In this document: one piece after another, positions 1,881-51,846 of the stretch
Numbering within the stretch: position 1 is the stretch's first letter
Layout of the letters: every line of letters begins with the position of its first letter
Assembly: GCA_000092065.1 (NCBI GenBank)
Contig: CP000585.1
From: Ostreococcus lucimarinus
Taxonomy: Eukaryota
DNA length: 64,000 nucleotides
Direction: 5' to 3' (one strand)
Program-made: the position numbers and the translations under genes
Notes under the pieces: model-generated
What the model saw: only the letters and a program-made list of their open reading frames with translations
Database searches by the model: none
What the model was told of the DNA's origin: nothing

Positions 1881-2044
1881 CTGTTTTCCGAGGGGAAAAA
1901 TCGTCAGTCGATCGCGCAATCTTCGCCCGCGCGCGAACTGTTTCCGCACTGTTTGCGCATACGCCCACACGCGATCGCGAAAACCCTAGCGCCCCCCCGA
2001 CGCGTCGTCGATCGCGCGCCGCGCTCGCCTCTCGCGTCGCGCAC

Positions 2045-2088
2045 CTCCATCACCGGCCCGAACTGCGAGAAAAAGTTTCTCACCACGC
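2045..2088 (-). CDS. hnRNP-like RNA-binding protein, exon 2 (44 bp; encodes (G)VVRNFFSQFGPVME, the middle of the RRM)
   Basis: The acceptor is acgcag|GC and the donor is GAG|GTGCGC. GACTGAC lies 30 nt upstream of the acceptor. The phase joins exon 1 (a trailing G) to give GGC, and the exon ends in phase 0, matching exon 3. Confidence 0.6.
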
Positions 2089-2261
2089 CTGCGTCCGTTC
2101 GCGTCGTCGTCTCGTCAGTCCCCGCGCGCTCGATCACCGCGTCGAATCGCGCATCGCGAATCGTCCCGTCGCGCGCGATCGACCGATCGCGCGATCGATC
2201 GCGCGTCGCGTCGCGTCCGTCGTCGTCGCGCGCGCGCGCGTCCCGCGCGATCGCGTCGCAC

Positions 2262-2340
2262 CTTCATCGACGGTTCGATCGAGTCCACCGACGAAGATCT
2301 TGGAGCCCGCGCTGGCGTCGCCCGCGGCGGAGTCGCCCAT
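2262..2340 (-). CDS. hnRNP-like RNA-binding protein, exon 1 (start codon plus RNP2: MGDSAAGDASAGSKIFVGGLDRTVDE)
   Basis: The ATG is at 2340-2338 (verified as cat on the plus strand). KIFVGGL is the canonical RNP2. The donor is GAA G|GTGCGA. Confidence 0.65.
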
Positions 2341-2615
2341 GTCGCGCGCGCGTGTGCGGGCGCGCGCGCGCGCGGGGCGTCGCGCGCGCCCTCGCTGGCG
2401 TTGAGTCGCGAACCGTCGATGGGATCGGCGTCGCGCGCGATGAGTCACGAACGGTCGATGGGATCGGTCGCGCGGTCGCGGTCGCGCGCGACGCGAGAGC
2501 GCGACGCGCGGGCCGACGCGCGGCGACGGCGCGGCGACGCGCGCGCGGGGCGACGCGCGGCGACGCGAGGCGCGAGACGCGGTCGGATTCGTCGACGACG
2601 CGAGAGACCGCGAGC

Positions 2616-2660
2616 GATTCGATTCGAAACGAAACGAAACGAAACGAAACGAAACGATTC
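2616..2660. repeat. Microsatellite (GATTC)2(GAAAC)6GATTC in the divergent promoter between the hnRNP-like gene and the kinase gene
   Basis: Six perfect GAAAC units at about 2626-2655 are flanked by GATTC units. The repeat lies about 30 bp upstream of the kinase ATG. Confidence 0.9.
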
Positions 2661-2683
2661 GAGCGCGCGACGCGACGCGCGCG

Positions 2684-4528: not shown

Positions 4529-4554
4529 GCGACACCGCGGCTTAGTGCACTTTG

Positions 4555-6712: not shown

Positions 6713-7224
6713 GTCTCAACGCCGCGCGCGCGCGCGATTCACCTCGACGGCGCGTCTCGATTGCGCGATGTCGCGCGATCGCGTGCGCGTTCCCGCGCGC
6801 GCGCGCTCGCCTCGCCCCCCGCGTGCGCGTCGATCGCGCGCGCGTTCGATCGCGACTTTGCGCCCGCGTTCGTTCGTTCGTTCGCTCGCGCGCGCGTTCG
6901 TTCGCTCGCTCGCGCGCGCGCGTTCGCGTGCGCGTCGCGCGATGCCGTGCCGACGTGGCGCCGAAATATCTGCGCGACTTTTTGTGCGCGCGCGGTCGGT
7001 CGTCGTGTGCGCAAACAGTCTGGCGCGTCGAGACTTTTTAAAACTTTTTGCGATCGCGCGCGACGCGCGATCGAGCGGTCGATCGGTCGATCGATCGCGA
7101 TCGCGCGCGCGACCGCGCGCGCGTCGATCGCGCGCGCGCGTCCAACCTCGCGCGGTGGGTCGACCGACGCGCGCGCGTCGATCGCGACCGCGACGACGAC
7201 GGCGCGCGATCTCGCGCGCGGGCG

Positions 7225-7378
7225 CACACGACGACGACGACGACGACGACGCGCGCGAACGAGCGAGCGAGCGACGCGCGAAGACGAAGGCGACGATGGC
7301 GAAGATCGAGGAGATGACGGACGCGGACGCGGCGCGCGAGGCGAAGACGCCGAACGCGAAGGCGACGGAGGGGACGAA

Positions 7379-7416
<38 letters not shown>

Positions 7417-7423
7417 CGACGGG
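7225..7423. repeat. Cluster of simple repeats: (CGA)n / (GACGAC)n trinucleotide tracts and a (GTTC)n tract upstream of the PHO88-like gene
   Basis: cgacgacgacgacgacgacgacg is at 7231-7255 and gacgacgacgacgacgacgacgacgacggcgacgg is at 7389-7423 (encoding poly-Thr). gttcgttcgttcgttcgctcg is at about 6882-6905, in the Mei2/PHO88 divergent intergenic region. Confidence 0.8.
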
Positions 7424-8072: not shown

Positions 8073-8137
8073 CAAGCACGAAATGGTTGACGAGTTGATG
8101 ATGTAACTAGTGTGTGGAGCTGTGTGTAGTGTCAAAT

Positions 8138-15250: not shown

Positions 15251-15425
15251 TCTGCGCGCGCGCGACGTCAAACCGTCTCCAGTCAGTCTCGCGTTTCAAG
15301 TCTCACTATCGATCACCCCATCGTCGTTCGCATCACCGTCCTCGCGTCGCGCATCGCGCGTCGTCTTCGAGTTCGTCCTTCGCGCGTCGTCCCGAGCGTC
15401 CCGGCGTCGTCGCGCGCGCGCCCAC

Positions 15426-16736: not shown

Positions 16737-17340
16737 GCCCTTGCTCGTCCGTCACCACGCCTCGAGGGCCGTGGATGTGATAACTCACACGCATTAACGT
16801 TGTTTACACGTCGTTTCGCTCCCGTTCGAAATCACGCGTCTCATTTGCGTCTCATTCTCGCGCGACAGTCCAAGAGTATTTGTCTTCCCAGTCGACAGTC
16901 TGGCTCGCCGAAGCGTCGCCGAGCCCGCACAGCTCGTCGCGCGCGTCGCGCGAGCGCCAGCCCTCGGCGACGTTCGTCGCGACGAACGCTTCCGACGCGA
17001 TGCACCGCTCGGGCGCCTCGAGCGCGCTTCGAGCCTCCGCCGCGCGCGTCGGCACCGTCCGCGCGCGAAGCGTCGGCGCGGCCTCCGCGTCGCGTTCGCC
17101 GCGCGCAGCGCTTCGCAGCGCGATCGCGGGGCGCGGACTCACCGCGCGCGGGTCGAAGAACTCAATCTCGAACGCGCTGTTGCTTCAAGACGCGCCGAAG
17201 GCGGTGGGAGAGGTGCGCGCGACGACGCGAGCGCGCGCGATGTTGGCGGCGGCGAAAATGCGTCGAAGACGTGCGACTAACGACGACGCGCGCGACGGCG
17301 CGATGACGCACGACAGGGCTCCGGCGCGATTGGGACGCAG

Positions 17341-20040: not shown

Positions 20041-20308
20041 TCGGCGCCGCAGAGTGCGGCGCGATGGACGGCGCGCGCCGAGGCGCGTGCGATCACGCGC
20101 CGACGACGTCGGGCGGTGCGGGCGACGCGCGACGACGACGCGACGCGCGCGACGCGCGACGCGCGCGACGCGCGACGCGCGCGACGCGATGCGATTCGAT
20201 GCGTGGTGCCCGAATTGACGAACGCGACGACTGACGACGGCGACGGCGACGGCGACGGCGACGACGCGCGCAGCGCTCGCGGAGACGCCGACGCCGTGTC
20301 ACACGCTC

Positions 20309-22727: not shown

Positions 22728-24099
22728 CTACGCCTCGACTTTGCCAAACTTTTCCTCGATCCACTGCGACGTGACGGATTTCGGGCGTTCGATGGGGTAT
22801 CCAGACCCGCGAGACAGCGTGAGTTGGCTCAAGACGCCGATAGCGCGCGAGGCACCGAATAAGACGGTGTAGAAGTTTGCTTCGGTGATGCCGTAGTATT
22901 GAAGCAACACGCCCGAGTGCGCGTCGACGTTGGGCCACGGGTTCTTCACTTTACCAGTCTCGGTGAGCACGCCCGGGACGACTTCAAAGAGCTTACCCAC
23001 GAGCTTGAACATCGGATCGTCGGGCAAGTGCTTGAGCGCGAACTCGCGCTGACACGTGTATCTCGGATCCGTCTTTCGCAACACGCCGTGGCCGTATCCC
23101 GGAACGACCCTGCCACTCTTCAGCGTCGCCCACACGAACTCAGTGAGTTCTTCCTTCGTCGCGTTGTCGCCAACTTTTTCGCGCGTCTCGTTGAGCCATT
23201 TCAGCACCTCTTGGTTCGCCAAGCCGTGCAACGGGCCGGCGAGGCCGTTCAAGCCGGCGACGAGCGAGAGGTACGGATCGCTCAACGCGCTCCCAACCAG
23301 GTGCGTGGCGTGCGCCGACACGTTCCCGCCCTCATGGTCGACGTGAATGGTCATGTACAACCGCATGAGCTCCTTCACGGCCTCGGAATCGTGCCCCATC
23401 ATGTGCGCGAAGTTCGCCGCCCAGTCCAGACTCGCGTCGGCGGCGACGAGCGTCCCATCCTTGAACGTTCGCCTGTAGATCGCCGCGCACACCGCGGGTA
23501 AACGAGCGATGATATCCATCGAGTCTTCGAACGCGTGCTCCCAAAACGTCGTCTTGTGCGCGCCGTCTTGATACGCCTTGGCAAACTTACTCTCCGGTTG
23601 CATCGCCATCAGCGCGACGCTCAGCTGCGTCATCGGATGCGCGTTTTTCGGCAGCGCGTCGAGCGCGTCGAAAACCGCCTTCGGCACCTCCGCGCGCGCC
23701 GCCAGCTCCGCGCTCAGCGTCCTCACCTGCGCCTCGCTCGGAATCTCCCCCGTCAGCATCAACCACATGATTCCCTCCGGCAGCGGCTCCTCGCCCCCCC
23801 GCGCCTTCGGCAACTTTTCCCGCAGCTCGGGAATCGCGCGCCCTCGGAACCGTATCCCCTCCTCCGCGTCCAACAGCGACGTCTCGTACAGCATCGCCGT
23901 GATCCCTCGCATCCCTCCCGCGACCATGTTCACCGTCACCTCGCCCACGACGCGGTCCCCGTGCGCCCGCTTGATCGCCCGCAGTCGCGCGTTCGCGCGC
24001 TCCAGCGCCGCCGCGACGCGCGCCTTGAGCCCGACCGCCGCGTCGTCGCTCGCCGACGTCGCGCTCGCGCGTCCGCGCTCGACGCGCGTCGTCGGACCG

Positions 24100-24136
<37 letters not shown>

Positions 24137-24244
24137 CGCGCGCCCATCCGTCGCGCGCCCATCCGTCGAGCGCGCGCGACGGACGCGCGCGCGACTCGAG
24201 CGCGCGCGCCGCGCGTCGGCTCGCGCGCGCGACGATCGCCGACA
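22728..24244 (-). CDS. Citrate synthase, mitochondrial type, with an N-terminal presequence containing an (Ala-Thr)5 repeat
   Basis: [56 protein letters not shown] and [14 protein letters not shown] are citrate synthase signatures. The ATG at 24244 was verified ([15 protein letters not shown]...). The upstream 670 nt of ORF 22728-24914 is read-through. Confidence 0.9.
24100..24170. repeat. (GTCGCC)6 hexanucleotide repeat followed by a 2x 15-bp tandem duplication (gcgcgcccatccgtc) inside the citrate synthase presequence coding region
   Basis: gtcgccgtcgccgtcgccgtcgccgtcgccgtcgcc followed by gcgcgcccatccgtcgcgcgcccatccgtc. On the minus strand these encode ATATATATATG and [10 protein letters not shown]. 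Confidence 0.85.
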
Positions 24245-24570
24245 TCCGCGTCGAGCGCTGGCGCCGGCCGCGCGCGCGACCGACGCGACGCGGATGTCGG
24301 CGATCGACCGACACGCGGGTGTCTCGCGGCGCACGACCGACCGACCCGAACGCGCGCGTACACCATATAATAATCGTCAGCGCGCCGTCGACGCGCGCGA
24401 CGTTCGCGCGAAATTCGACCGCGAACGTAAATCTCTGCGTCGTGTGGGCGAACAGTGTAGAGCTCGGACAATCGGCGCGCGTTCGAATTGCGCGTCGACG
24501 GATTCGCGCGCGAATCGCGACGACGCGCCCGCACGACGCGACGCGCGACGCGCCGAGAGCGCGAGGCGAG

Positions 24571-24798
24571 ATGGCGCGCGACGCGCCGAGAGCGGTCGAG
24601 GACGACGAGGGGCTGGCGATGGCGATCGGACTGGACGTGGGGATGCGATTGGCGACGCGCGGGACGCGCGACGGGGATTCGGACGCGAACGTTGACGAGG
24701 ACGACGACGACGACGACGACGGGGTGCTGCGAGCGATGGATCGATTGGGAACGAGGGACGAGGCGCTGCTGTCGAGGGTCGGGGCGCTCGGGACGCGA

Positions 24799-24831
<33 letters not shown>

Positions 24832-26748
24832 AAGGCGGGGGGGGAGACGCGCGCGGACGACGCGACGGCGGACGCGGCGAACGCGCAGGGTTCGAGGGCG
24901 CTGCAGATACTCAAGGTGAATCCGCAGGTGAGGAACGCGGAGTCGGCGCAAATGTTTCTGCCGGCGATTCATAAATCGCTCGCACCGAAGATTCGGACGG
25001 AGATGAAGACGAGCGCGTTTCGACCGCAACTTCCCGCGTGGGCGGCGACGAAGAAGGATAGTTTGGAGATTTCGGGAGACGTGGACGCGGTGTCGACGGC
25101 CTTGGACGCGAATCAAAAGTTTCAGCAAGACATATCTACCCTGTTGCGGGCGTTGGATGAAAAGATGGAGAGGAACGAGCGCTTGATCACGATGGTTACG
25201 CGTTGGAGAAATCGCAAGGGTCGTCGCGTGCACTGGTCGCTGCGAGAGGCCATGATGGACTTGTGGGGGCAGAAGAGCGATTTGTACTTCAGAGTGCCTT
25301 CGGCGTGGAATCCATCGAGCCGCGCGAGCGCATCGCTTCATTCGGACGACGCCACAGGGATCATGTCTCAGGCGACGCTGCAAAAGCAAATCACGCCGAA
25401 CGCGGACATGCTTCGTCTTGGCTGGGCAAATTTGGTGGAAAAGATACCGCTTTCGTACGCCTCGCATTGTCGAGCTTGGACGCCCAAGGAAGACGCACAG
25501 CTGAGAAAAGGTGTGCACTTCCAGCTGCAACAAGCCCGTTTACTCACGGATCAGCGCATGAGTCTGGAAGAGCTTGCGGGAATGTCAGTGCAACCGCTCA
25601 GCGCGCTCCTCCAGCCGGGCGGTTTGGACGTCGTCTTGCGCGATTCCGAAGCCATCGATTGGGGCGAAGTGGTTCGCATGCACATGCCGTTGCGCACCGT
25701 GGATGATTGTCGATTACGGTGGATGAACGTCGTCGACCCGCGAATCTGTCCAGAAGCGTGGACGGACAGGGAAGACGATATGCTCATCGAACTCGCCGAA
25801 GGATGGGAGACGAAGAGGAATTGGACCTTGATCGCCGAGGAGATTTTCGCGGCCAAGATCACGCCCGGAAAACTTCTTCGCTCGCCGCATCAGTGCGCGA
25901 TGCGCTACCAAGCGGAATGGAATCCGTCGCTGGTGAAGAGCTCATGGACGCCGGAAGAAGACGCGTTCATTTTGCGTTGGATCAAGGACCACGGCGTCGG
26001 ACACTGGACTAAGCTCGCCCGTCTGCTGCCGGGTCACACCGGGCAGCAACTTCTTCATCGTTGGCGTCGGATCCAGCCCACGAGGCGCACGGGCGCGTGG
26101 ACGGAAGAGGAAGACGAAGCGTTGCGCGTCGCCGTCGGCGCGTACAAGCAGGGTGAGCGAATCAAATGGTCGTTGGTTCAAGAGCACGTCCCGACGCGCA
26201 CAGACGTGCAGTGCCGCGAGCGTTGGACGGGTGTACTCGATCCTGGCATCAAGACTGGACCATGGACTGAGGAAGAGGACGCGGCGTTGATGGCGGCCAT
26301 GGGTCCCCACTGGCAGGAGAACGGCTTCAACGAATGGGCGCGTCTCACCGCGGTTCTGCCTGGTCGCACTGGGAAGCACTGTATGCGACGCTGCCGCGCG
26401 CTCGCAAAGAAACAGAACGACGACGGCGAGGCTTCTCACCAAGGCGGAGGCGAACGATCGTCGGCCGCAAAATCGAAGAACAAAGCGACGACGACGAAGA
26501 AGAAGCGCGCTGCGGCGACGACCACGGCACCCGTCGCGGAGCCCGCTCTCGAAGAGCCGGTCGACGACGCGCTTGGCACCGACGAACATCCACCGACTGC
26601 GAGGAAGAAGGCTCCCGCTCGACAGAAGACTGCGAAGACCACAGCTTCTAAGACGGCGTCCATCGCATCGCCGAAAACGCGCGATGACAAAGCGCCCGTT
26701 GTCGAACCCGAGCCGAAGAGACCGCGAAGAAGTACGCGGACGACGTGA
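24571..26748 (+). CDS. Myb/SANT-repeat DNA-binding protein with five tandem Myb repeats (SNAPC4-like or Myb3R-like)
   Basis: Repeats: [13 protein letters not shown]..., [16 protein letters not shown]..., [133 protein letters not shown]. The ATG is at 24571. The ORF's upstream part overlaps citrate synthase antisense and was rejected. Confidence 0.7.
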
Positions 26749-33202: not shown

Positions 33203-36200
33203 CTAAACCTCGTGCGAGTCTTGTGGAGGCCGCGGCGCGAACGGAGGAGGCGGGCCTCGGCTTCCTGGCGGCGGGCCTCGGCCTGGTGGTCCTCGGCCTC
33301 TTCCTCGGCCGGGCGGCGGTCCTCGACCTGGATATCCTCTACCAGGCGGAGGGCCTCGTCCGCGTCCACCGCTCATGTTCGGCGCGAGTGCATTTGACAT
33401 CGGTGGTGCGCTTGGTGGCGCCGAAAGTTGAGGCGGCGCGGCTGCCGGAGGCGCCCGTTGCCATTGCGGAACGATGGGCTTGTTCGTCGCTGGATTTCCC
33501 ATCATGACGAACGGTGCATTTGTCGCGGCAGCTTCACTATCAGGAGTATCATTCGCCATCTCTTCCATGGACTGGCCGCCATGATCCGTCAAACTCATCG
33601 ATCGCGGAATACCATTCGTCACGCCAGACTGGTGCGTTCCAAACGGTTCACCCGCGTGCGGCACTTGCGTAGGGAGGTCAGCCATGTGCGGCGGCGGATT
33701 ACTCATCGAAGCGTATGGATTACCGAAGGTAGGCGCGTACTGTGACACACCGTTAGCTCGGGGCGACTCGACCGGGGAGGGGATCCCGGTCGGCCCCGCG
33801 CCCATCGGCGGCGCCATCATGACTGGCGGCGCCAACGCGTTGCCCGTGTTGTAATGCGTCGCGGCATCCGCGTGCTGCAACGGTGGGACATCTCGGCGTC
33901 GCGGCGAGTCGGGTTGGTTTGGGTGTGACAAAGGAGCCGCAGAGCGCGGTGGTGGACCCTTCCATTTGCCTTGTGTTCCCGAATTCTTTGCGCCGCCACC
34001 CAGAAGTACGCTCACGACGCGCATCAAAATAAGCGTCAACACGATGGGCGGCCCGAAAATCGTTGCGTTGACGCCGAAAGTGATCAAATCTTTGTTGGAA
34101 GCGAGAGCGGTACCCATGATGGAGTCTACCTTCACTGCAACCGACGTGAACGTCTCGTCACACAGCTCCATGAACGAAAGCAACTTGTTTCCGTGCTTGG
34201 TTTTCCACGCTTGATGAAGAATGCCTTCCATGACACGAGTCACGAAATTGATGATGAACATGACAAAGGGAGAGACAAACGTCCAAGCTCGACCAAAGCT
34301 CGATCTTATCATGTCGAATCCAGACGGATTACCCCGTGTATCGTAAAACTGAGACGACTTAGACTCTTGCTCGTGTGTAATTTTCGCGTCTTCCTCATTC
34401 CAGTCCAAATCCTGTATCAATCCTGTATCAATCATTTGCTCATCGATGGACGAGTCCGTGGCGGCGGTTTCGTCCATAGAACCTTCGGGAACTGATATTT
34501 CGTCATCCGCGACTTCTTTCGTTTCTTCGACGGTCACTGGCTCTTCGATTTGTGGCTGTTCGCCCAGCTCCTCAGTGACTTGTTCTTCGTCATTTGATGT
34601 ATCGAAGACGCTCTCGTCTGTTGTCGTGTCCATGACGGGCGTATCATCGACCTTTGTATCGACTTCTACTTCGTCCGTGGTAGGATCTTCGACAACTGCT
34701 GTTGACTCGGCGTCTGACGACGTCTGTTCGGTCGACTCGACGTTCATAGCCTTCTCGTGTTGAAGCGAATCTTCTTCACTCGGTGCGGCGGTGCTCGCGC
34801 TTTCTTCACACTTTGGACACGTCTCCGGTTCAGGGCACTCTATAGGTTTCGGACATTTCTTTTCTCGGAGCTGGCGTTCCTCGTCCAACGTCTCTTTGGT
34901 TGCTTCGGTCAACTCTGTCTGCTCACGTAAAAGTCTCTTGGTCTCGCCGTGCTGTCGATCGATTTCGTCGCATCGATCTTTTTGCTCGTCGAGCTTGACT
35001 TCAGCGTCGAACGTGCGTTGACGAAGAGCATCGGCTTGTTTTTGCAGATTACTGCGAAGCTTTGCGCTCTGCGCCAAGCACGTATCCGTGCAATCACATT
35101 CGTTTTCAGTCGAAGCTTCTGTCGCCGCGAGTGCAAGTACTTTCTCGTTGTACTGAGTGAGCAAAGCGTCCAAATCAGCTTGCACTTTCTCATGTTGCTC
35201 CTTCATGGTGCGCAGTTTTGACTGACACTTGCCCAACTCATCGACAGCCTCTTTGCTCGATTCAACCTTCCCTTGAAGAGATTCTACCTGCTTCGTCGCC
35301 GCCGCGAGTTCCTCCGACAACTTCTCGATTTCTTCCTGCGCCAAGAGCAATTCTTCGCTCTGTTTGTCGTAGGCCTCCTTTGTCGTAACGGATCGAACTA
35401 ATTTGTCGTACTCGTCTCGTAAAAGGTCGTAATCTTCGCGCAGAGAGCTCTTGGTCTTTTCGGCTTCCGCGAGACTACGCGACATGTCAGCGGCAGACGC
35501 TACACCTGGAGGACACGCACTCGTATCGCGCAACGACTCGAGCTCTGCCGTGAGCTCATCGATGCGCGCCTGTGCGCTCATGTGCTCTTCCGAAACACCG
35601 CGAGCATCTCCAAGTTCACCCTCGAGCTCGGCCAACCTCGAAACAAGCGCTTGCTCGTCTTCGCCTCTTCGCGAAAAATCCTCTTCGAGCGCGTTAATCT
35701 TCTGTTTGAGTTCTTCGTTCTCGCTGATGATTTGCGCATTACTCGCGATTTGTTTTTCAAGATCGACCATAACGCGCCGATCATCAATCTCCGCCTCGTC
35801 GTGTGCGACCTTGCGTGCCATGAACTCTTCCAACTCGCGCTTCAAATCGTCACCATTTTTTTTCATCGCGCGCATCGCTTTGCTTGTCTTCAACAGCGTC
35901 GCTGAAACAGCCTCAACCGTCTCTCCCGCGGATGCGTCCACACTCACCGGAATCTTGTTCGCGGCCATCCACTCCCGAAGCGCGTGAAGCGACTCGTCCG
36001 CACTCAGTCCGACGGGCACATCAATCTTCTGCGCGGCTTTTTGCTTCGCACGCGGCGGTTCCGACATCACCGGCTCTGGCTCCATCACCGGCTCTGGCTC
36101 CATCACCGGCTCTGGCTCCATCTCTGGTTCGTCCTCAACCGCGGGCTCACGTTCCGGCTCCACATCCTCCAATTCAACCGCACGCTCCATCGCGTGCCCT

Positions 36201-36544
36201 AATTCACCGACCTCGGGCTCCGCCTCGACTCGCGTCTCGCGCCCCGCCGACGCCTCCCCCCCCCCGTCCTCGTCCTCTTCCTCCCATCCCTCCGGCTGAT
36301 CCCACTGCGACACCTTATCGATCCCATCGTACCAATACGCCCGCTTCGTCGTCGCGTCGACGTGTTTCGTCCACCGCGCGCGCGCGTCGACGCCGTTTCC
36401 CATCGAATCCATCGACTTCAGATCGTCATCGCTCGCGAACGCCGGTCGCACCGTCGCGCACGCGCCGCAGACGACCGCGCACGCCGCGATGAGCGATGCG
36501 AATCGCGCGCGTCTCCCTCGGGCGCGATCGCGCGCGCGCGCCAT
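33203..36544 (-). CDS. Large membrane-anchored coiled-coil protein with an N-terminal signal/anchor, a WW domain, an acidic (EPEPVM)3 repeat, a long coiled coil, two C-terminal TM helices and a Pro/Gly/Arg-rich tail
   Basis: WW domain: WTKHVDATTKRAYWYDGIDKVSQWDQP. There are heptad-rich helical stretches across about 500 aa. TM candidates are WTFVSPFVMFIINFV and IVLTLILMRVVSVLLGG. The tail is GPPPGRGYPGRGPPPGRG. The ATG at 36544 was verified. Confidence 0.6.
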   Translation of the reverse strand: MARARDRARGRRARFASLIAACAVVCGACATVRPAFASDDDLKSMDSMGNGVDARARWTKHVDATTKRAYWYDGIDKVSQWDQPEGWEEEDEDGGGEASAGRETRVEAEPEVGELGHAMERAVELEDVEPEREPAVEDEPEMEPEPVMEPEPVMEPEPVMSEPPRAKQKAAQKIDVPVGLSADESLHALREWMAANKIPVSVDASAGETVEAVSATLLKTSKAMRAMKKNGDDLKRELEEFMARKVAHDEAEIDDRRVMVDLEKQIASNAQIISENEELKQKINALEEDFSRRGEDEQALVSRLAELEGELGDARGVSEEHMSAQARIDELTAELESLRDTSACPPGVASAADMSRSLAEAEKTKSSLREDYDLLRDEYDKLVRSVTTKEAYDKQSEELLLAQEEIEKLSEELAAATKQVESLQGKVESSKEAVDELGKCQSKLRTMKEQHEKVQADLDALLTQYNEKVLALAATEASTENECDCTDTCLAQSAKLRSNLQKQADALRQRTFDAEVKLDEQKDRCDEIDRQHGETKRLLREQTELTEATKETLDEERQLREKKCPKPIECPEPETCPKCEESASTAAPSEEDSLQHEKAMNVESTEQTSSDAESTAVVEDPTTDEVEVDTKVDDTPVMDTTTDESVFDTSNDEEQVTEELGEQPQIEEPVTVEETKEVADDEISVPEGSMDETAATDSSIDEQMIDTGLIQDLDWNEEDAKITHEQESKSSQFYDTRGNPSGFDMIRSSFGRAWTFVSPFVMFIINFVTRVMEGILHQAWKTKHGNKLLSFMELCDETFTSVAVKVDSIMGTALASNKDLITFGVNATIFGPPIVLTLILMRVVSVLLGGGAKNSGTQGKWKGPPPRSAAPLSHPNQPDSPRRRDVPPLQHADAATHYNTGNALAPPVMMAPPMGAGPTGIPSPVESPRANGVSQYAPTFGNPYASMSNPPPHMADLPTQVPHAGEPFGTHQSGVTNGIPRSMSLTDHGGQSMEEMANDTPDSEAAATNAPFVMMGNPATNKPIVPQWQRAPPAAAPPQLSAPPSAPPMSNALAPNMSGGRGRGPPPGRGYPGRGPPPGRGRGRGPPGRGPPPGSRGPPPPFAPRPPQDSHEV
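36066..36123. repeat. 18-bp coding tandem repeat (catcaccggctctggctc) x3.2
   Basis: Three perfect units encode EPEPVM x3 on the minus strand inside the coiled-coil protein gene. Confidence 0.85.
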
Positions 36545-36633
36545 CGTCGCGTCGTCGAGTGCGCGAGCGACGGTCGTTACGTCGAGACTTTGAGACTTCG
36601 CGCGCGCCGCACACCGCGACGCGCGCGCGCGCG

Positions 36634-37263
36634 ATGTCGAGGACGCGCGAGATGACGCGCGGTCGCGCAAACGCGCGCGACGTCGCGACGACGCGCTCGC
36701 CGGTGCGCCGCGCGCGCGATGCGGTCGTCGACGCGATCGTTTCCCTCTCGCACGGCACCGGTCGACAAACCGCGCTGCAGTGGCTCTCCTTGGCGCTCAT
36801 CGTCGCCAGCGCGCTGATGGTGTGGAAATCGCTGATGTTGTTCACGCAGAGCGAGTCGCCGGTCGTGGTCGTGCTGAGCGGGAGCATGGAGCCCGGACTG
36901 CGACGAGGCGACTTGCTGCTGCTGGATAACTCGCGCGGGCCGAGCGAGATCGGCGACGTCGTCGTCTTCAACATACGCGGACGCGACGTGCCGATCGTGC
37001 ACAGAATACTACACGTACACGCGAATTCGCCCGCTGACGTCGGTTCGCGGTTGATGCTGACGAAGGGAGATAATAATTTCGCCGACGACGGCGCGCTGTA
37101 CGCGCCGGGACAGCGATGGTTGCGACAGGACGACGTCGTCGGACGCGCGGTGGTGTTCTTGCCGCACGTCGGGCGGCTGACGATATTGATGAACGATTAC
37201 CCGTGGTTCAAGTACGGGTTAATCTCGATTTTAGGGTTTTTCGTCGTCACTGGGAAGGACTAG
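36634..37263 (+). CDS. SEC11: Signal peptidase complex catalytic subunit SEC11 (SPC18/21-like)
   Basis: VVVVLSGSMEPGLRRGDLLLL (catalytic Ser in SGSMEP), IVHRILHVH and LTKGDNNFADD match SEC11. It has a TM anchor LSLALIVASALMVW. The start is taken at M47 of the ORF (about 36634). Confidence 0.8.
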   Translation: MSRTREMTRGRANARDVATTRSPVRRARDAVVDAIVSLSHGTGRQTALQWLSLALIVASALMVWKSLMLFTQSESPVVVVLSGSMEPGLRRGDLLLLDNSRGPSEIGDVVVFNIRGRDVPIVHRILHVHANSPADVGSRLMLTKGDNNFADDGALYAPGQRWLRQDDVVGRAVVFLPHVGRLTILMNDYPWFKYGLISILGFFVVTGKD

Positions 37264-44540: not shown

Positions 44541-44605
44541 GTCGCGACGCGCGTTCGATTCGTCGAGGACTAGATTGTGAAATACTCATTCGTTTCTAGA
44601 GAGTA

Positions 44606-45781: not shown

Positions 45782-47434
45782 TCAGCGCAAGTCCACGCTC
45801 GACGCGTTCGGGATGCAGTGGGTGTGTAAAATTTCCTTCGTGGATTTTTTCGCCGCCTTGGTCTCGAGCACGATTTGTATCGATTGATCGAGCTCGATTT
45901 TCAAGTACTCGTGCTTGCAGCCTTCGACGATTTTCACGAGTTCGCGCAAGTTTCTCACGGATTTACCGTTCACGCCGCACACGACGACGTTGACGATGTC
46001 TTCATAGCCAATGTTGATGTCCGAGTTGAGCACTTGACTCACGACGACGACTTGATCGTCTGGCTTCTCCTTGTGCCCGTGCATCATCTTCGTCAGTAAA
46101 CGCAGCGGAGCGTCGTAATCGTAATCTTTACCGTATTCCGATCGCAAGTACGGCACACACACCACGGTGAAGACGATGCCCGCGCAAATGTAATACGACG
46201 GAGGCTTGCCCTCGATGTGCACCGGAACGAGGCGGTCGTGCGGCGTCAACGAAATGTCGAAATTCATCATCTTGCCATCGCGTAGGACGGTGACCGCAGC
46301 ACTATCGCCGACGTACTTGCGAGAGACTAAATAAGAAAAGTTAATGCGCTCGCCCGTTCTAAAAACCACGGTGCCGTCGGAAGCGACGTCGACGCCGTCG
46401 AATTTCATCAACACATCGCCGCGTTTCAACACCTTGGCAGCCGGCGCGAGAGGCGATAGACGTCGAAGCAAGACGCCGTTGTGCGCGGGTTTCATCCCGA
46501 GACTCTTCCGAAGCGATGGGTTCTCCAAGCGCTGGAACTCGCACTGCAGCGCCGGGAAACCGTTGTACACGCCCGTCCTCTTGAAGTCGCTAATAAAATG
46601 GTCGACGACGGGCGTCGGTATGATGTAGCCGATTCCTTCGGTGTCCGAGTCCTTGAGCGATTGAAACGCCACACCCACGCACTGCCCTTCGCGCCCGAAC
46701 GCCGGACCCCCGCTGTTGCCAGAATTGATAGCCGCGTCGATTTGCACCCCCAAAAGCTCCGTCGCGCCGTGCGAATACGACGTCACCTCTATCCGACTAA
46801 CCACCCCACTCGTGACGCTAATCGCGATCCCACCCACCGGATACCCAACCACAGTGACGCTGTCTTGCAAGCGAGGCAACACGCCGAACTTCACCGGCGC
46901 CACGCCCTCGAAAAACTCCTTCTCCTCCACCGTCAACAGCGCCAAGTCGCACTCCACGCCGATGGTCAACACCTTGGCCACGTACTTTTTATCGCTCCCG
47001 CGCTTCTTCAGCTTCACCTGCGTGTGATGTTCCACGCTGTGCGCGTTCGTCAGCACCATATTCCCCTCTATGACGAACCCCGTGCTCGTGCTCGAGCTCT
47101 GTCGCTTTCGCTGCCACGGCAGGCTCCAGTTCGGCTCGGTGTGCGTCGCGAACACCTTCACCACCGCGTCCAGCGGGTACTGCGGCGCGTCCTCGTCGTC
47201 GCTCGCCCATCCATCGACGTCCCCAAAGTAATCCACCGCGTCCTCCGACGACCGTCCGCTCGCCGGCGCCTCCGTCGCGTCCGTCTCGTCGTCCTCGTCC
47301 GCGTCTCGCGCGCCGCCTCGCCTTCGTCGCGTCGTCTCCTCCTTCACCGGCGTCTCCCCTCGCGCGCGCTTCGACGCGCGCGCCGGCGCCTTCGTCGCGC
47401 GCGTCTTTCCCGCGCGCTTCGTCGCGCGCGTCAT
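45782..47434 (-). CDS. Deg/HtrA-family serine protease (trypsin-like domain plus PDZ; plant DEG2/7/9-like) with a Lys/Arg-rich N-terminus
   Basis: The catalytic triad context is TNAHSV (His), ECDLALL (Asp) and GNSGGPAF (Ser). A PDZ-like region ([29 protein letters not shown]) follows. The ATG at 47434 was verified. The upstream 870 nt of the ORF is Arg-rich read-through. Confidence 0.8.
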
Positions 47435-47578
47435 CGCGCGTCGCGTCGTGCGTCGCGCCGCGCCGGCGATCGTCGCGCGGCGTCGAGACGCCGCGCGCGA
47501 CGCACACACGGACCACACCACACCCGCGCCGCCCCGCCCGCGCGCCGCGCCCGCCCGCGCGCGTCGCACGACGCCGCG

Positions 47579-47718
47579 ATGGCGCTCGCGACGGCGCCGC
47601 CCGCGGGCAACGTCGCCGACGCGCTCGCGTACGTCCGCGAGGTCCGCGATCGGTTCGCGCGACAGACGGGAAAGTATCGCGAGTTCCTCGCCGCGATGCG
47701 CGACTTTAAGACTGGAAC
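47579..47718 (+). CDS. Sin3-like paired-amphipathic-helix (PAH) protein, exon 1 (start codon plus the first half of PAH1: [35 protein letters not shown])
   Basis: The ATG is at 47579. The sequence matches the PAH consensus (DAL.YL..VK..F.....Y..FL.IM..FK). The donor is AC|GTGCGT at about 47719. It lies 144 bp head-to-head from the Deg protease start. Confidence 0.65.
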
Positions 47719-47818
47719 GTGCGTCGCGACGTCGCGCGACGCGACGCGACGCGACGCGACCGACGCGCGATGACGCGCGAGCGACGAACGACTGACGACG
47801 ACGACGACGGCGACGCAG

Positions 47819-47909
47819 GCTCACGCCCGAGGGCGTGATCGAGCGCGTGCGACGGTGCCTGCGAGGACACGACGATTTGCTCGACGGCTTTCGAGCGTTT
47901 CTGCCCGAG
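47819..47909 (+). CDS. Sin3-like PAH protein, exon 2 (completes PAH1: [29 protein letters not shown])
   Basis: The acceptor is gacgcag|GC after a 100-bp intron (47719-47818) that contains GACTGAC 25 nt upstream of the AG. The join gives ...[15 protein letters not shown]..., matching Sin3 PAH1 (TPGVISRV...GHPDLIMGFNTFLP). The exon end at the GAG|GTGCGG donor (about 47909) is a tentative choice; it must lie before the in-frame stop at 48272. Confidence 0.5.
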
Positions 47910-48471
47910 GTGCGGGACGCGCGAGACGAGACGGACGCGAGACGAGACGGAGACGGAGACGACGCGAAAACGACGACGATGGCGCGAGACGACGAAGGCG
48001 CGGTGACTGACGGTGACGCGCGACGCGCGGGTCGGGGCGCAGGGATACTCGACGGCGACGGCGACGGCGAGCGGGACGCGCGCGCGCGGACGACCGGCGA
48101 CGGCGAGCGGGCGCGGAAGACCGAGAAAGGCGCCGAGCGCGCGGGAGGTGGCGATGAAGCGCGAATGCGAGGTGCGCGGGCGACGGCGACGCGCGCGCGA
48201 CGCGCGCGCGGCGGCGAACGCGACGCCGATCGACGCGGGGAAAAGTCGGCTGGGGTCGGAGGGACTCTTTGACGAGTCACGACCCGTCGATCGTTTGAAA
48301 CCACAGCCGTCCGACCGACCGACCTGATCCGACGGCGCGAACCGGCGGTTGGGGTCGCGCGGGCGACGCGCGCGGGACGGCGACGGTTTCGTTCGGTTCG
48401 CGAACGCGCGGAAGACGATCGAGCGCGTGACTGACTGTGTGCGCGAACGCGCGCGTGATAAGGCGACGCAG

Positions 48472-49563
48472 GAAACGGATGAGAATCGAAGCGCGACGTT
48501 ACTGAGCGGACAAGATTTGCTCAAGCGCATTCGCGCGCAGTACGCGTCGGACGACCGTCCGTATCAGGCGTTTTTACAGACGTTGATTAAGTTTAGGAAC
48601 AAGCAGTTCAGCGCGGAAGAGGTGGTGCAGAAGTGTGCGATATTGTTTTATGATCATCCGCAGTTATTGGAGGGTGAAAATGGGTTGGCCACCTTTGTGC
48701 CGAAGACGTGCAAGCCGCCGACGCGGTCGTCGTGGTTCGAGTGGAGTCCGGCGGTGCATCATCGCTTCAGCAGCGAGAGCTTTCGATTGTTCGTGCGCAC
48801 GTTGTTATTGTGTGAGTATAAAAGTCGCTTAACGCCGCCGGAGCCGAAGATGCGGCGTTGGCGTCTGACGGATGGCGACAGTAGCGAGTCGGATAGCGAC
48901 GACTACACGTCGTCGGACGAGAGCGAAAGCGAGAGTTCGACGGTGATAGAAAAAGAGTCTGGCACGCTTCGACCGGATCAAATTCCCGATCGATGGGTGG
49001 GTAAAATACACGACCGAACGTTGAGCGCGTTCGAGCGCCTGACTTTAGAGCTCAAACCGAAAGACGAAGAGTATTGCTGGGCCGACACCAAGGCGGCGCG
49101 CGAAGCCAAGGAGAGCAAGGACGCGATCGAACTTCGGGGCAAGCGCGGTCGCGGCGAAGAGCGAGATTTCACGACGACGCCTCGAGATTCACCATCACCG
49201 CCGCCGTCGTTTAATAAACGGCGCGCGAGCGCTCGCATCGTGGCCAAGGTGAACCGAGGCATCGTGTACAACCGCTATCGCAGCTTGGCGTCCCCCGACG
49301 GTCTCTCGCGCGGTCGCATGCGCATGACGCGATCGATGAGCACGGTGGACGACACCTTGCCCGCCAAACCAGATCGCAAGTTCTTGATCAATCGTGACGA
49401 AGGCAAGATGTCCCCGCTGTGCGCCGAGCGCATCGGATTACACTCCCTGCCCGCCGTCGCGCTCGAGAAAATCATCGCGTGCTACAGCGCGCAAGAGGGC
49501 GTCGCCGAGCTCAATCAAATTCGCGAGTCTCTGATCAAATCGCTCATAAAAAATAATAGGTAA
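48472..49563 (+). CDS. Sin3-like PAH protein, last exon (PAH2 plus a Ser/Asp-rich C-terminal region)
   Basis: The acceptor is gcgacgcag|GAAACG with gtGACTGACtg 38 nt upstream. PAH2 is [63 protein letters not shown]. The frame differs from exon 2, which requires an intron ending here. Confidence 0.6.
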
Positions 49564-49780
49564 CGAAGCACGCGCGCGCGCCGCCGCACGGCGCGCGATC
49601 GATGTAAAGGCTATCATACATGTGGCATTAAACTCGTCCGAGCGCGTCAAGACCTACCTCCGCGATCCGCCCTCGCGCGCGCGATCCCCGCGCGCGCGTC
49701 TCCCCTTCCCCGCGTCTCGCCGCGCGCGCGCGCCTCGGCGCGAAAACGCGTCTCTACCGATCCTTCGCGCCGTCGCGCGC

Positions 49781-49951
49781 TCAGTGCCCGCCCGGATTCA
49801 CAAACTTGCTCGCCTTTTTGTCCGCCTCCGTGATTCCCATCGTCGCGTAGACCACCGCCACGCCGACGGCGCCGATGCCGGTGAAGAACGGCCACGCCTT
49901 GGGGATCTCGCGCGTGAGCGCCGACAGAAAGCTCGTGTTCGCGTGCGGCAT
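49781..49951 (-). CDS. Small single-TM protein (56 aa), candidate plant-type mitochondrial ATP synthase 6 kDa subunit
   Basis: MPHANTSFLSALTREIPKAWPFFTGIGAVGVAVVYATMGITEADKKASKFVNPGGH. The WPFxxGxxxxG...G(I/L)TEE(D/A)xKxSKFV pattern resembles my recollection of the Arabidopsis mitochondrial ATP synthase 6 kDa subunit. The ATG at 49951 was verified. It lies in the 490-bp gap between the PAH gene and the Rab gene. Confidence 0.4.
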   Translation of the reverse strand: MPHANTSFLSALTREIPKAWPFFTGIGAVGVAVVYATMGITEADKKASKFVNPGGH

Positions 49952-50055
49952 CGGTGCGGCGCGCGGATTCGTGAGGCGTGCGCGAGGTCGAGGACGCGCG
50001 ACGGTGTCTGCGGTCTTCACATCGCGACGCGACGCGAACGCGCGACGCCGACGCC

Positions 50056-50667
50056 ATGACGAGCGACGACGCGCGCGCGTACGATCACCTGGTGAAAATC
50101 CTCCTCGTCGGCGACTCCGGGGTCGGGAAGTCGTCGCTGCTCGCGCGATTCATCAGCGATTCGTTCGACGAGCAGGGCCCGACGGTGGGCGTGGACTTTA
50201 AACTGAAACACGTCGACGTCGACGGGACGAGGCTGAAGCTCACGGTGTGGGACACCGCGGGACAGGAACGGTTTCGAACGCTGACGAGCTCGTATTACAG
50301 AGGCGCGCACGGGGTCGTGTTCGTGTACGACGTGACGTCGAGGGAAAGCTTTGAGAACGCGCGCGAGACGTGGCGAAAGGAGGTGGAGATGTACGGAACG
50401 ATCGCGAATTCGGTGAAGATTGTGATTGGAAATAAGATCGATAGGGAAGATGAACGAACGGTGGCGCGGAAGGAGGGCGTGGCGTTCGCGAAGGAGTATG
50501 GGTGCTTGTTTCTGGAGTGCAGCGCGAAGACCAAGGTGCGCGTGGCGGAGGCGTTCGACGAGTTGGTCAAGGGGATTTTGGACGCGCCGGGGTTGTTGGT
50601 GGACGAAGTCGACGATGGGGTGAAACTCGGCGCGTATGCCGATCGCGCGGGCGGTGGGTGCTGCTGA
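50056..50667 (+). CDS. Small GTPase, Rab18-like
   Basis: LLVGDSGVGKSSLL (G1), TVGVDF (effector), WDTAGQE (G3), GNKID (G4), SAK (G5) and a C-terminal GGGCC prenylation motif. Overall similarity is to Rab18 (FRTLTSSYYRGAHGV). The ATG at 50056 was verified. Confidence 0.85.
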   Translation: MTSDDARAYDHLVKILLVGDSGVGKSSLLARFISDSFDEQGPTVGVDFKLKHVDVDGTRLKLTVWDTAGQERFRTLTSSYYRGAHGVVFVYDVTSRESFENARETWRKEVEMYGTIANSVKIVIGNKIDREDERTVARKEGVAFAKEYGCLFLECSAKTKVRVAEAFDELVKGILDAPGLLVDEVDDGVKLGAYADRAGGGCC

Positions 50668-50859
50668 AGAACGCGAGCGGTACCGCGCCGTCGCGGGCGA
50701 GGAAGGAAATGAAACTCGCCGCGACGCATGTTGTAATCTAGAGATAGTATTGAAAGATCTTCAAAAAGCTACAGGCGCGCTCTCGGATCGGTCGAGACAT
50801 GGTTCGTCGCCTCGACGTGTCGCGAGCGCATTTTTACGTGTACAAACATCGACTCGCAT

Positions 50860-51312
50860 CTAGAGTGGCGCGGCGATGACTGCCTCATACTTCTTAACCG
50901 TCGTCATCAACGAGAGATCGAAGAACTTTTCGCCGATGCTCGCCGTCAAACCACCGATCAATCGAGGGTCAACCACGGCCTCGATCTTCAGCGTCGAGCC
51001 CGATGGGGCGTGGCCCTTGATGGATTCCGTAACCTTGGTGAGCTGCGCCGGGGTGAGCGCCTGCGCCGTCGTGATGACGCACTTCACCTCGTTACGGGAA
51101 GCCATGCATTGCTCTTCGAAGCGAAGCGAAATCTTGTGCAACTCCTTCAGCCGTCCGTACTCCGCCATCGTGGCGACGAAGTTGCTCGTGATCGGCGTAA
51201 ACTTCGCGCCCGCGCAAAATTCCTTGACGCCCGCCAACTTCTTGCTCTTCGCCATCGACGGATCCATCAGAAACTGCTTAAACTTGAGATCTTTCTCGAC
51301 CAAAGCCGTGAG
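50860..51312 (-). CDS. ATP5O: ATP synthase OSCP (F1Fo subunit O/delta), exon 3
   Basis: ...AVVDPRLIGGLTASIGEKFFDLSLMTTVKKYEA is the OSCP C-terminal signature. The exon begins at a tgtag|CTCACGGCT acceptor in phase 0. The intron is 51313-51430 with GACTGAC 27 nt upstream of the AG. Confidence 0.75.
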   Translation of the reverse strand, partial: LTALVEKDLKFKQFLMDPSMAKSKKLAGVKEFCAGAKFTPITSNFVATMAEYGRLKELHKISLRFEEQCMASRNEVKCVITTAQALTPAQLTKVTESIKGHAPSGSTLKIEAVVDPRLIGGLTASIGEKFFDLSLMTTVKKYEAVIAAPL

Positions 51313-51430
51313 CTACATCGATGAAATCACGCGCGCGTCGATCGTCGTCAGTCACTCGTCCTCGTCTCGCCGTCGTCGTTCCGTCCCCTCTCTCTCGCGC
51401 GCGTCGCTCGTCTCGCGCTTTCAAACTCAC

Positions 51431-51535
51431 CTGCGCCACTTCACTCTCAACCGCGGCCAAAGACCCAGCCTTCGTCGCCGCGACGTACAACGCCGTGGCG
51501 TACCGTCCGCTCGTCCCGAATTGTTGCAAAGGCGC
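51431..51535 (-). CDS. ATP5O: ATP synthase OSCP, exon 2 (APLQQFGTSGRYATALYVAATKAGSLAAVESEVAQ)
   Basis: GRYATALY...A.K is the conserved OSCP N-terminal helix. The donor is GCGCAG|GTGAGT and the acceptor is cgacgcag|GCGCCTTTG, with an in-frame TGA just upstream. The M of the ORF is TTG, so it is not a start. Confidence 0.65.
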
Positions 51536-51846
51536 CTGCGTCGTTCCGCCCGCGTCCCAAAGTCAGTCCCCGCGCCCGATCCCCCCCCCCCCGCGCCCAC
51601 GCCTCGCCGTCCCGTCCCTCGCCCTCGTCCATCGCGTCCTCGAATTTCCCACGCACCTTCACGTCCCCCCCGCTCGCCCCCTTCGCGCTCGCCGTCGCGT
51701 ACGTTCGCTGCGAAGCGTCGTCGTCCGTCAGTCCTCGCGCGTCCCGATCGAATCTTCGCGCGCGTCGTCGCGCGTCGCCGTCGCGCGTCGCCGCGCGATT
51801 CGCGTCGCGTCGCATCGCGCGAATTTCGTCTCGCGCGTTCGCGCAC

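What the first reader, a model, noticed from the sequence alone, without database searches (positions are those of the whole stretch)
1881..51846. All seven inferred introns carry an invariant GACTGAC box 24-45 nt upstream of the 3' splice site, a yeast-like rigid branch point
The box is present in every intron I could place: hnRNP introns (1881-2044, 2089-2261), the HECT intron (15251-15425), PAH-gene introns (47719-47818 and the intron ending at about 48471), and OSCP introns (51313-51430, 51536-51846). In each case the sequence GACTGAC (extended (g)gGACTGACga/tt) lies 24-45 nt before the AG. Donors are GTGCG/GTGAG/GTGGG and acceptors are CAG/TAG. The motif was found after the exon models were drawn, so it is an independent consistency check. 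A hepta-nucleotide branch box this constrained is unusual outside hemiascomycete yeasts. It provides a practical intron finder for this genome: scanning the window for GACTGAC/GTCAGTC located every intron and revealed the hidden 5' exons of HECT and OSCP.
Basis: seen in the sequence. Interest (0 to 1): 0.65.

Follow-up and report, generated by a model that had tools for sequence, protein, structure and literature searches.

The report
Known Ostreococcus intron branch-point box
The GACTGAC box is real and marks the branch point of every intron found in this stretch of the green alga Ostreococcus lucimarinus, but this signal was already described for this very species in 2008, so the finding is correct and not new.

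Summary
GACTGAC occurs 11 times in the window. That is no more than chance for the raw count (9.15 expected), but 10 of the 11 hits lie in the sense strand of GT..AG introns, with the branch A 20-39 nt before the 3' splice site.

- The HECT intron is 15252-15425.
- The OSCP 'intron' 51536-51846 is two introns flanking a 51-nt exon.
- Two more box-bearing introns exist, at 47910-48042 and 20116-20273.

Five introns are confirmed independently of the box. My spliced OSCP and hnRNP proteins are identical to RefSeq XP_001417984.1 and XP_001417969.1. Splicing also restores complete RRM, PAH and OSCP Pfam domains.

In orthologous OSCP and PAH introns of O. tauri and three metagenomic relatives, the box is the only conserved island inside otherwise unalignable introns.

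The window is Ostreococcus lucimarinus CCE9901. Irimia and Roy (2008) reported for this species outside chromosome 2:
- 87% ACTGAC and 66.5% GACTGACG;
- 5' splice site GTGCGTG;
- CGCAG acceptors;
- a branch-to-AG distance of 20-35 nt.

Verdict: a correct rediscovery of a published, yeast-like constrained branch-point consensus. It is not an introner family and not chance. Interest is low.

The parts
2089..2261 (-). hnRNP (RRM-WW) intron 1, 173 nt. Donor GTGCGA, box GACTGAC at 2114-2120, branch A 26 nt from the 3' end, acceptor CGCAG.
   Evidence: The spliced protein is identical to XP_001417969.1. RRM_1 is restored to 1-67/70, against 30-67 in the last exon alone.
1881..2044 (-). hnRNP intron 2, 164 nt. 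Donor GTGCGC, box at 1903-1909, branch A 23 nt from the end, acceptor CAG. This is the only intron with a clear T/C-rich tract.
15252..15425 (-). HECT ligase intron, 174 nt. Donor GTGGGC, box at 15282-15288, branch A 31 nt from the end, acceptor CGCAG. It joins a 43-codon ATG exon (15554-15426) to the 1528-codon ORF.
   Evidence: The frame closes only with the acceptor at 15253-15252. There is no in-frame ATG in the first ~110 codons of exon 2. This model rests on signals and frame only.
20116..20273 (+). Donor GTGCGG, box at 20229-20235, branch A 39 nt from the end, acceptor CGCAG.
   Evidence: The model is in frame and keeps a Cys-rich CxxC segment that has no upstream ATG of its own. This exact protein is not in the public collection, so the model is inferred.
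47719..47818 (+). PAH-domain gene intron 1, 100 nt. Donor GTGCGT, box at 47790-47796, branch A 23 nt from the end, acceptor CGCAG.
   Evidence: Splicing restores a full PAH domain 2-45/45 across the junction (E 3e-25); exon 1 alone gives no hit. The O. tauri orthologous intron keeps GGGACTGAC.
47910..48042 (+). Donor GTGCGG, box at 48005-48011, branch A 32 nt from the end, acceptor CGCAG.
   Evidence: The exon 2 end FLPEG|Y fits the PAH consensus. The O. tauri orthologue has weaker signals: GTACCG, CGCTGAC, TAG.
48172..48471 (+). PAH gene intron 3, 300 nt. Donor GTGCGC, box at 48429-48435, branch A 37 nt from the end, acceptor CGCAG. There is an alternative in-frame AAG acceptor at 48462.
   Evidence: The O. 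tauri alignment puts the conserved GACGCAG|G at 48471 and keeps TGACTGAC.
51708..51846 (-). OSCP intron 1, 139 nt. Donor GTGCGC, box at 51727-51733, branch A 20 nt from the end, acceptor CGCAG.
   Evidence: The 4-exon protein is identical to XP_001417984.1 and colinear with the O. tauri model. The box is conserved in O. tauri and L006.
51657..51707 (-).
51536..51656 (-). OSCP intron 2, 121 nt. Donor GTGCGT, box at 51562-51568, branch A 27 nt from the end, acceptor CGCAG.
   Evidence: GACTGAC is invariant in all five aligned species, and apart from scattered single bases it and the terminal CAG are the only invariant stretch of the intron.
51313..51430 (-). OSCP intron 3, 118 nt. Donor GTGAGT, box at 51347-51353, branch A 35 nt from the end, acceptor TAG.
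   Evidence: The OSCP domain is restored to 2-169/172, against 30-169 in the last exon. The box is conserved in four species; the intron is absent in L007.
17214..17340 (+). Unverified candidate 5'UTR intron just upstream of the asparagine synthase ATG (17341). Donor GTGCGC, variant box GACTAAC at 17275-17281, AG at 17315-17316 or 17339-17340.
   Evidence: There is no transcript or comparative support; L011 is not alignable. The annotated protein starts at 17341.
35220..35226 (+). The only GACTGAC outside an intron. It is antisense within the 1155-codon ORF 33203-36670 (-).

Best explanation
The window is nuclear DNA of Ostreococcus lucimarinus CCE9901, from the GC-rich, intron-poor part of the genome. 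GACTGAC(G) is the branch-point sequence of its ordinary U2-type spliceosomal introns.

Inferred mechanism, from general splicing biochemistry: the box is bound first by the branch-point binding protein (SF1/BBP). It then pairs with the GUAGUA segment of U2 snRNA. In that pairing A-C-U-G pair with U-G-A-U (the G as a G-U wobble), C pairs with G, and the sixth base, A, is bulged out and attacks the GTGCG donor. The 3' splice site is then the first AG lying about 20-40 nt downstream, usually CGCAG. AGs 3-5 nt after the box are skipped.

The spacer is purine-rich and has no polypyrimidine tract, so intron definition rests on three strong signals: GTGCG, GACTGAC and CGCAG.

Shown here: the placement, the orientation, the validity of the introns, and conservation across species. 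Inferred: the identity of the branch A and the factors that read the box.
For: Organism. The ClpP and AsnS ORFs are identical to XP_001417979.1 and XP_001417722.1 of O. lucimarinus CCE9901. Gene order OSCP-Rab-PAH-DegP-cyclophilin is the same as on O. tauri CAID01000005.2.

Placement. Ten of 11 hits are in the intron sense strand, with the A 20-39 nt from the acceptor. P is about 1e-27, or 1e-13 for the independently validated subset.

Intron validity without the box. The spliced OSCP and hnRNP proteins equal the RefSeq models exactly. RRM_1, PAH and OSCP domains become complete only after splicing.

Phylogenetic footprint. The three OSCP introns and PAH introns 1 and 3 keep GACTGAC in O. tauri, and the OSCP introns also in the metagenomic relatives that have them. 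The flanking intron sequence is unalignable.

Literature.
[quoted passage not shown] The window gives 10/10, 7/10, 8/10 GTGCG, 8/10 CGCAG and 20-39.
- Verhelst 2013 and Simmons 2015 report the same GACTGAC(G) branch motif in Micromonas.
Against: No RNA-seq, EST or lariat data could be examined, so splice junctions for HECT, the 417-aa gene and PAH introns 2-3 rest on frame, signals and comparison. The branch A is not mapped.

The conserved G at box position 1 would face A38 of a canonical U2 GUAGUA, a mismatch. U2 pairing therefore does not explain it.

I could not recover the Ostreococcus U2 snRNA.

The raw motif count in the window is not above chance.
Confidence: 0.92

Rival explanations
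1. The introns are copies of an introner-type mobile element, as in Micromonas. On this view the box is shared by common descent of the copies rather than by selection on each intron.
For: Micromonas introner families carry GacUGAC / GACTGACG. The intron bodies here share a (GCGACG)n-like composition, and their local alignment scores are slightly above shuffled controls (mean 15.1 against 13.0).
Against: The best body-to-body alignments are only low-complexity CG/GAC repeats. The maximum score of 31.5 is within the shuffled range (maximum 30.5). The same repeats fill the intergenic DNA. The introns sit at identical positions in O. tauri and other relatives, with the box kept and everything else diverged. 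They are therefore old, individually constrained introns. Lengths range from 100 to 300 nt with no common ends.
Confidence: 0.03
2. The pattern is a chance or ascertainment artefact, because the reader partly used the box to draw the introns.
For: The window-wide count of 11 matches the shuffle expectation of 9.15. The HECT and OSCP 5' exons were found by means of the box.
Against: Five introns are fixed by evidence that ignores the box: RefSeq-identical spliced proteins and restored Pfam domains. All five have it at 20-35 nt, P about 1e-13. Composition-matched permutations of the 7-mer average 0.13 hits in the introns, against 10 observed. The orthologous introns in other species have it too.
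Confidence: 0.01
3. The box is an intronic binding site for another factor, such as a splicing enhancer or a DNA-level regulatory element. On this view it is not the branch site, and the true branch lies elsewhere.
For: No lariat mapping is available. The flanking G residues are not explained by canonical U2 pairing.
Against: The core is the universal CTRAC branch consensus. It is strand-specific and sits at the usual branch-to-AG distance. No other conserved element exists in the last 50 nt apart from CGCAG. AGs within 5 nt of the box are skipped, as expected downstream of a branch point.
Confidence: 0.04

Closest known systems
Constrained 'canonical' introns of Ostreococcus lucimarinus outside chromosome 2 (Irimia and Roy 2008, PLoS Genet, PMC2483917)
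   Same: The species is the same. The features also match: ACTGAC / GACTGACG branch box, GTGCG(TG) donor, CGCAG acceptor, branch-to-AG spacing of 20-35 nt, and a GC-rich intron-poor setting. The window frequencies (10/10, 7/10, 8/10, 8/10) match the published genome-wide ones (87%, 66.5%).
   Different: Nothing substantive differs. The window sample happens to be 100% for the 7-mer, whereas genome-wide about 10-13% of such introns deviate.
Micromonas canonical introns and introner elements (Verhelst 2013, PMC3879977; Simmons 2015, PMC4540971)
   Same: Sister genus in Mamiellophyceae. Donor AG|GTGCGT, NCTGAC or GACTGACG branch motif, CAG acceptor.
   Different: The Micromonas introner elements are multi-copy families with sequence similarity along their whole length. 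The introns here share only the splice signals and low-complexity composition. The reported distance in Micromonas canonical introns is 43-52 nt, against 20-39 nt here.
Hemiascomycete yeast TACTAAC box
   Same: A near-invariant 7-nt branch box in an intron-poor genome. It has the same register (the branch A is the sixth base), the same presumed pairing with U2 GUAGUA, and strong 5' splice sites.
   Different: The sequence differs at positions 1 (G for U) and 5 (G for A, giving a G-U wobble with U2). The donor is GTGCG rather than GTATGT. The origins are independent (convergence, as argued by Irimia and Roy).
Chromosome 2 (low-GC, 'BOC') introns of Mamiellophyceae
   Same: Same organism and, presumably, the same spliceosome.
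   Different: Those introns are 40-65 nt, AT-rich and have no discernible branch motif. None is present in this window.

Membership tests
Ostreococcus non-chromosome-2 constrained U2-type introns (Irimia and Roy 2008) | Branch box ACTGAC, extended to GACTGACG in about two thirds | tested here: met
   10/10 introns have GACTGAC and 7/10 have GACTGACG.
Ostreococcus non-chromosome-2 constrained U2-type introns (Irimia and Roy 2008) | Atypical strong donor GTGCGTG | tested here: met
   GTGCG in 8/10, with GTGAG and GTGGG once each.
Ostreococcus non-chromosome-2 constrained U2-type introns (Irimia and Roy 2008) | Branch-to-AG distance in a broad peak of about 20-35 nt, and CGCAG at the acceptor | tested here: met
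   The branch A is 20-39 nt from the last intron base. CGCAG occurs in 8/10.
Ostreococcus non-chromosome-2 constrained U2-type introns (Irimia and Roy 2008) | Host is O. lucimarinus, in the GC-rich intron-poor genome fraction | tested here: met
   Exact protein identity to O. lucimarinus CCE9901 RefSeq entries. GC is 57-67% across the window. There are about 38 genes with 10 introns.
Ostreococcus non-chromosome-2 constrained U2-type introns (Irimia and Roy 2008) | Removal from transcripts (EST or RNA-seq junctions) and branch formation at the box A | not testable with these tools
   Support is indirect only: spliced products equal RefSeq models and domains are restored.
Introner elements (Micromonas IE families and similar) | Many copies with sequence similarity along the whole intron | tested here: not met
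   Body-to-body alignment scores are within the shuffled range and made of simple repeats. The introns are orthologous across species.
Yeast-type TACTAAC introns | Box sequence UACUAAC and donor GUAUGU | tested here: not met
   The box is GACUGAC and the donor is GUGCG. It works like the yeast box but is not the same consensus.
U12-type (minor spliceosome) introns | Donor [AG]TATCCTT and branch box TCCTTAAC 10-15 nt from the acceptor | tested here: not met
   None of the ten donors or boxes resembles these.

The most novel reading that the evidence does not exclude
The two G residues that set this box apart (position 1, and the G after the box) are not explained by pairing with a canonical U2 GUAGUA. 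They could reflect a lineage-specific change in U2 snRNA or in the SF1/BBP RNA-binding surface. That change would have co-evolved with the splice signals of Mamiellophyceae, together with 3' splice-site choice that does not need a polypyrimidine tract. Irimia and Roy raised the snRNA possibility in 2008. A 2022 preprint found no compensatory change in U1. I found no test of U2 or SF1 and could not retrieve the Ostreococcus U2 gene.
Probability: 0.1. Interest if true: 0.5.

Novelty: already known. Interest (0 to 1): 0.1.

Why it matters
As a discovery it does not matter: the motif, its spacing and its partner signals are published for this species.

It has practical value. In this genome the triplet GTGCG ... 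GACTGAC ... (20-40 nt) CGCAG is a reliable intron flag. It finds short 5' exons and micro-exons that ORF-based or prokaryote-style gene callers miss. Many metagenomic ORFs of this alga in public collections are single exons or intron read-throughs.

It also gives a clean example of convergent tightening of splice signals in an intron-poor eukaryote.

Tried and rejected
1. Annotation-free intron census.
   - A codon-usage Viterbi segmentation was too noisy in this GC-rich DNA.
   - A scan of donor/acceptor pairs with coding flanks was also too noisy.
   - A T-poor/G-rich composition filter flagged coding sequence as often as introns.
   - I therefore cannot exclude further introns that lack the box.

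2. Other CTRAC hits near gene 5' ends.
   - The HAD hydrolase and the Mei2-like gene need no intron.
   - The Alba upstream CTGAC has no convincing donor.
   - The asparagine synthase upstream GACTAAC stays a candidate only. A relative (L011) was not alignable there.

3. Depletion of the box outside introns. One hit was observed against about 9 expected from shuffles. This is not significant against composition-matched 7-mer permutations, 32% of which have one hit or none.

4. Introner test: negative.

5. Search for the Ostreococcus U2 snRNA, to check pairing with the box.
   - One metagenome scan with the branch-binding hexamer left free gave 120 loci, and 117 of 124 matches have canonical GTAGTA.
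   - None has an Ostreococcus-like tetranucleotide profile.
   - The GC-rich compact candidate L072 is a pelagophyte.
   - L083 looks chlorophyte-like.
   - L047 is unassigned.
   - This was a dead end.

6. Rfam found no RNA genes in the window.

7. A metatranscriptome protein in the hnRNP cluster (P0112) looked chimeric and gave no junction evidence.

Full report
**Observation.** GACTGAC occurs 11 times in the 64-kb window on both strands. Dinucleotide-preserving shuffles give 9.15 +/- 2.9, and 31 of 100 shuffles reach 11. The motif is therefore not over-represented as such; its placement is what stands out. Reading each hit on its own strand shows that ten of them lie between a GTG[CAG]G donor and a YAG acceptor. 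The eleventh (35220-35226 +) is antisense inside a long ORF.

**Intron models.** I rebuilt the gene models by frame.
- So are PAH intron 47719-47818 and OSCP intron 51313-51430.
- The PAH intron ending at 48471 begins at 48172.
- The PAH gene has a further intron at 47910-48042.
- A 417-aa gene has an intron at 20116-20273.
It is really two introns (51708-51846 and 51536-51656) around a 51-nt exon.

All ten introns carry GACTGAC. The branch A lies 20-39 nt from the last intron base. Donors are GTGCG x8, GTGAG and GTGGG. Acceptors are CAG x9 and TAG. Eight of the ten end in CGCAG, and seven have the extended GACTGACG.

**Independence from the box.**
- My four-exon OSCP protein is letter-for-letter RefSeq XP_001417984.1.
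- My three-exon hnRNP protein is XP_001417969.1.
- The OSCP model is colinear with the O. tauri protein, micro-exon included.
- Pfam sees only RRM_1 positions 30-67 and OSCP positions 30-169 in the last exons. After splicing it sees RRM_1 1-67 and OSCP 2-169.
- A full PAH domain 2-45/45 spans the exon 1/2 junction, whereas exon 1 alone scores nothing.

For these five introns alone, the chance that five of the eleven hits fall in the five 20-nt zones is about 1e-13. For all ten it is about 1e-27. Shuffling each intron gives a per-intron chance of 0.0015-0.04. Among all 630 permutations of the 7-mer, GACTGAC is the most frequent in the introns, with 10 hits against a mean of 0.13.

**Organism.** The ClpP and asparagine synthase ORFs of the window are identical to XP_001417979.1 and XP_001417722.1 of Ostreococcus lucimarinus CCE9901, on an 847,696-bp record. 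The gene order around OSCP is the same as on O. tauri CAID01000005.2. GC is 57-67% throughout. Pfam assigns about 30 ordinary nuclear genes. This is the GC-rich, intron-poor part of the genome, not the atypical half of chromosome 2.

**Comparative test.** I fetched the OSCP locus from O. tauri and from three metagenomic Ostreococcus relatives.
- In every sequence where an OSCP intron is present and covered (L009 starts inside intron 2; L007 lacks intron 3) it carries GACTGAC 22-41 nt before its acceptor. The flanking intron sequence cannot be aligned.
- In intron 2, apart from scattered single bases, the seven box columns and the terminal CAG are the only invariant intron columns across all five sequences.
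- One lineage (L007) lacks intron 3.
- In the PAH gene, O. tauri keeps GACTGAC in introns 1 and 3. Its alignment supports the CAG at 48471.
- O. tauri PAH intron 2 has weaker signals (GTACCG, CGCTGAC, TAG).

The CTGAC core is thus under purifying selection. The extended form is common but not obligatory.

**Rivals.**
- Introner elements. An origin like that of the Micromonas introner elements predicts similarity along the whole intron. Local alignments of the intron bodies are only (GCGACG)n-type low complexity, with scores within the shuffled range. The same degenerate repeats fill the intergenic DNA. The introns are also positionally conserved between species.
- Chance or ascertainment. The independent subset excludes this.
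- Another intronic protein site. I cannot formally exclude it without lariat data. However, the CTRAC core, the strand specificity, the spacing and the skipping of AGs 3-5 nt downstream are what a branch site predicts.

**Mechanism.** By the general model of U2-type splicing, SF1/BBP binds the box and U2 GUAGUA then pairs with ACUG-C, bulging the A. The G at box position 5 would form a G-U wobble. The G at position 1 would face an A, so U2 pairing leaves it unexplained. The spacer between box and acceptor is purine-rich (T 12%, pyrimidines 42%) and usually lacks any poly-T motif. Recognition therefore probably relies on the three strong signals rather than on a polypyrimidine tract. These steps are inferred, not shown.

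**Comparison with the literature.** Irimia and Roy (2008, PMC2483917) studied 319 EST-confirmed O. lucimarinus introns outside chromosome 2. They reported:
- ACTGAC in 87.2% and GACTGACG in 66.5%;
- the atypical donor GTGCGTG;
- a preference for CGCAG;
- a branch-to-AG distance of about 20-35 nt.

They interpreted this as convergence with yeasts in intron-poor genomes. Verhelst et al. (2013, PMC3879977) and Simmons et al. (2015, PMC4540971) describe the same motif in Micromonas canonical introns and introner elements. A 2022 preprint reports that the U1 snRNA of Mamiellophyceae keeps the standard pairing region despite the unusual donor. Every element of the finding is therefore already published, for this very species.

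**What stays open.** I tried to recover the Ostreococcus U2 snRNA from metagenomes, to see whether the base opposite the box's first G has changed. None of the 120 loci retrieved is Ostreococcus-like. Whether further introns without the box exist in the window could not be settled either, because three annotation-free screens were too noisy. The only candidate lies upstream of the asparagine synthase start. It carries GACTAAC and is unverified.

**Verdict.** The interpretation as a rigid branch-point box is supported. The feature is already known, so interest is low.

Noticed in passing
window 51657-51707 (-): A 51-nt micro-exon in the OSCP gene sits between two box-bearing introns. It is in frame whether included or skipped, so sequence alone cannot detect it. 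It matches RefSeq and the O. tauri model.
   Followed up: yes
window 48462 / 48471 (+): PAH intron 3 has two in-frame acceptors 9 nt apart (AAG, then CGCAG). The first AG after the box is not the conserved one, so this may be an alternative 3' splice site.
   Followed up: partly
window 17000-17340 (+): Upstream of the asparagine synthase ATG lies a 71-codon ATG ORF. It ends at a GTGCGC donor and is followed by GACTAAC and two AGs. This may be a 5'UTR intron with an A-variant box, or a uORF.
   Followed up: partly
L007:600-1250 and L008: A metagenomic Ostreococcus relative lacks OSCP intron 3 precisely. In intron 1 it has a triple CTGACTGACTGAC. This points to intron presence/absence variation within the genus.
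   Followed up: no
L132:9350-10375 (-) (O. tauri PAH gene): The O. tauri orthologue of PAH intron 2 has weak signals (GTACCG donor, CGCTGAC, TAG). The extended box is therefore not universal even outside chromosome 2.
   Followed up: no
all ten introns, box to acceptor: The spacers are purine-rich (T 12%, pyrimidines 42%). Only hnRNP intron 2 has a clear T/C tract, so there is effectively no polypyrimidine tract.
   Followed up: partly
window 2190-2581, 6771-7421, 20118-20193, 47721-47767, 48054-48239, 51756-51885: Intron bodies and intergenic spacers consist of degenerate GC-rich tandem repeats of the (GCGACG)n kind. A perfect (CGAAA)6.6 microsatellite lies at 2625-2657, between the divergent hnRNP and kinase genes.
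   Followed up: partly
window 45785-48520 (-) and 22731-24968 (-) / 23572-26745 (+): Very long spurious ORF extensions overlap real genes on the opposite strand. For example, the DegP ORF runs 1 kb past its likely start, across the whole 5' half of the PAH gene. This is typical of the high GC content and is a trap for ORF-based gene calling.
   Followed up: partly
window 33203-36670 (-): The lowest-GC stretch of the window (0.57) coincides with a 1155-codon ORF that has no Pfam hit. It contains a perfect 18-nt x 3.2 tandem repeat at 36065-36122.
   Followed up: no
protein P0005 (MDA9766586.1): An NCBI metagenome-assembled genome labelled '[bacterium]' encodes a 477-aa RCC1 protein that falls in the same 90%-identity cluster as the one in this Ostreococcus window, on a 563-kb contig. 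It is probably a misclassified eukaryotic MAG.
   Followed up: no
L062:3665 and other U2 loci: A few U2-like loci in metagenomes have non-canonical branch-binding hexamers (ATAGTA, GTTGTA, TTAGTA, GCAGTA) in place of GTAGTA. Whether they are pseudogenes or real variants is unknown.
   Followed up: no
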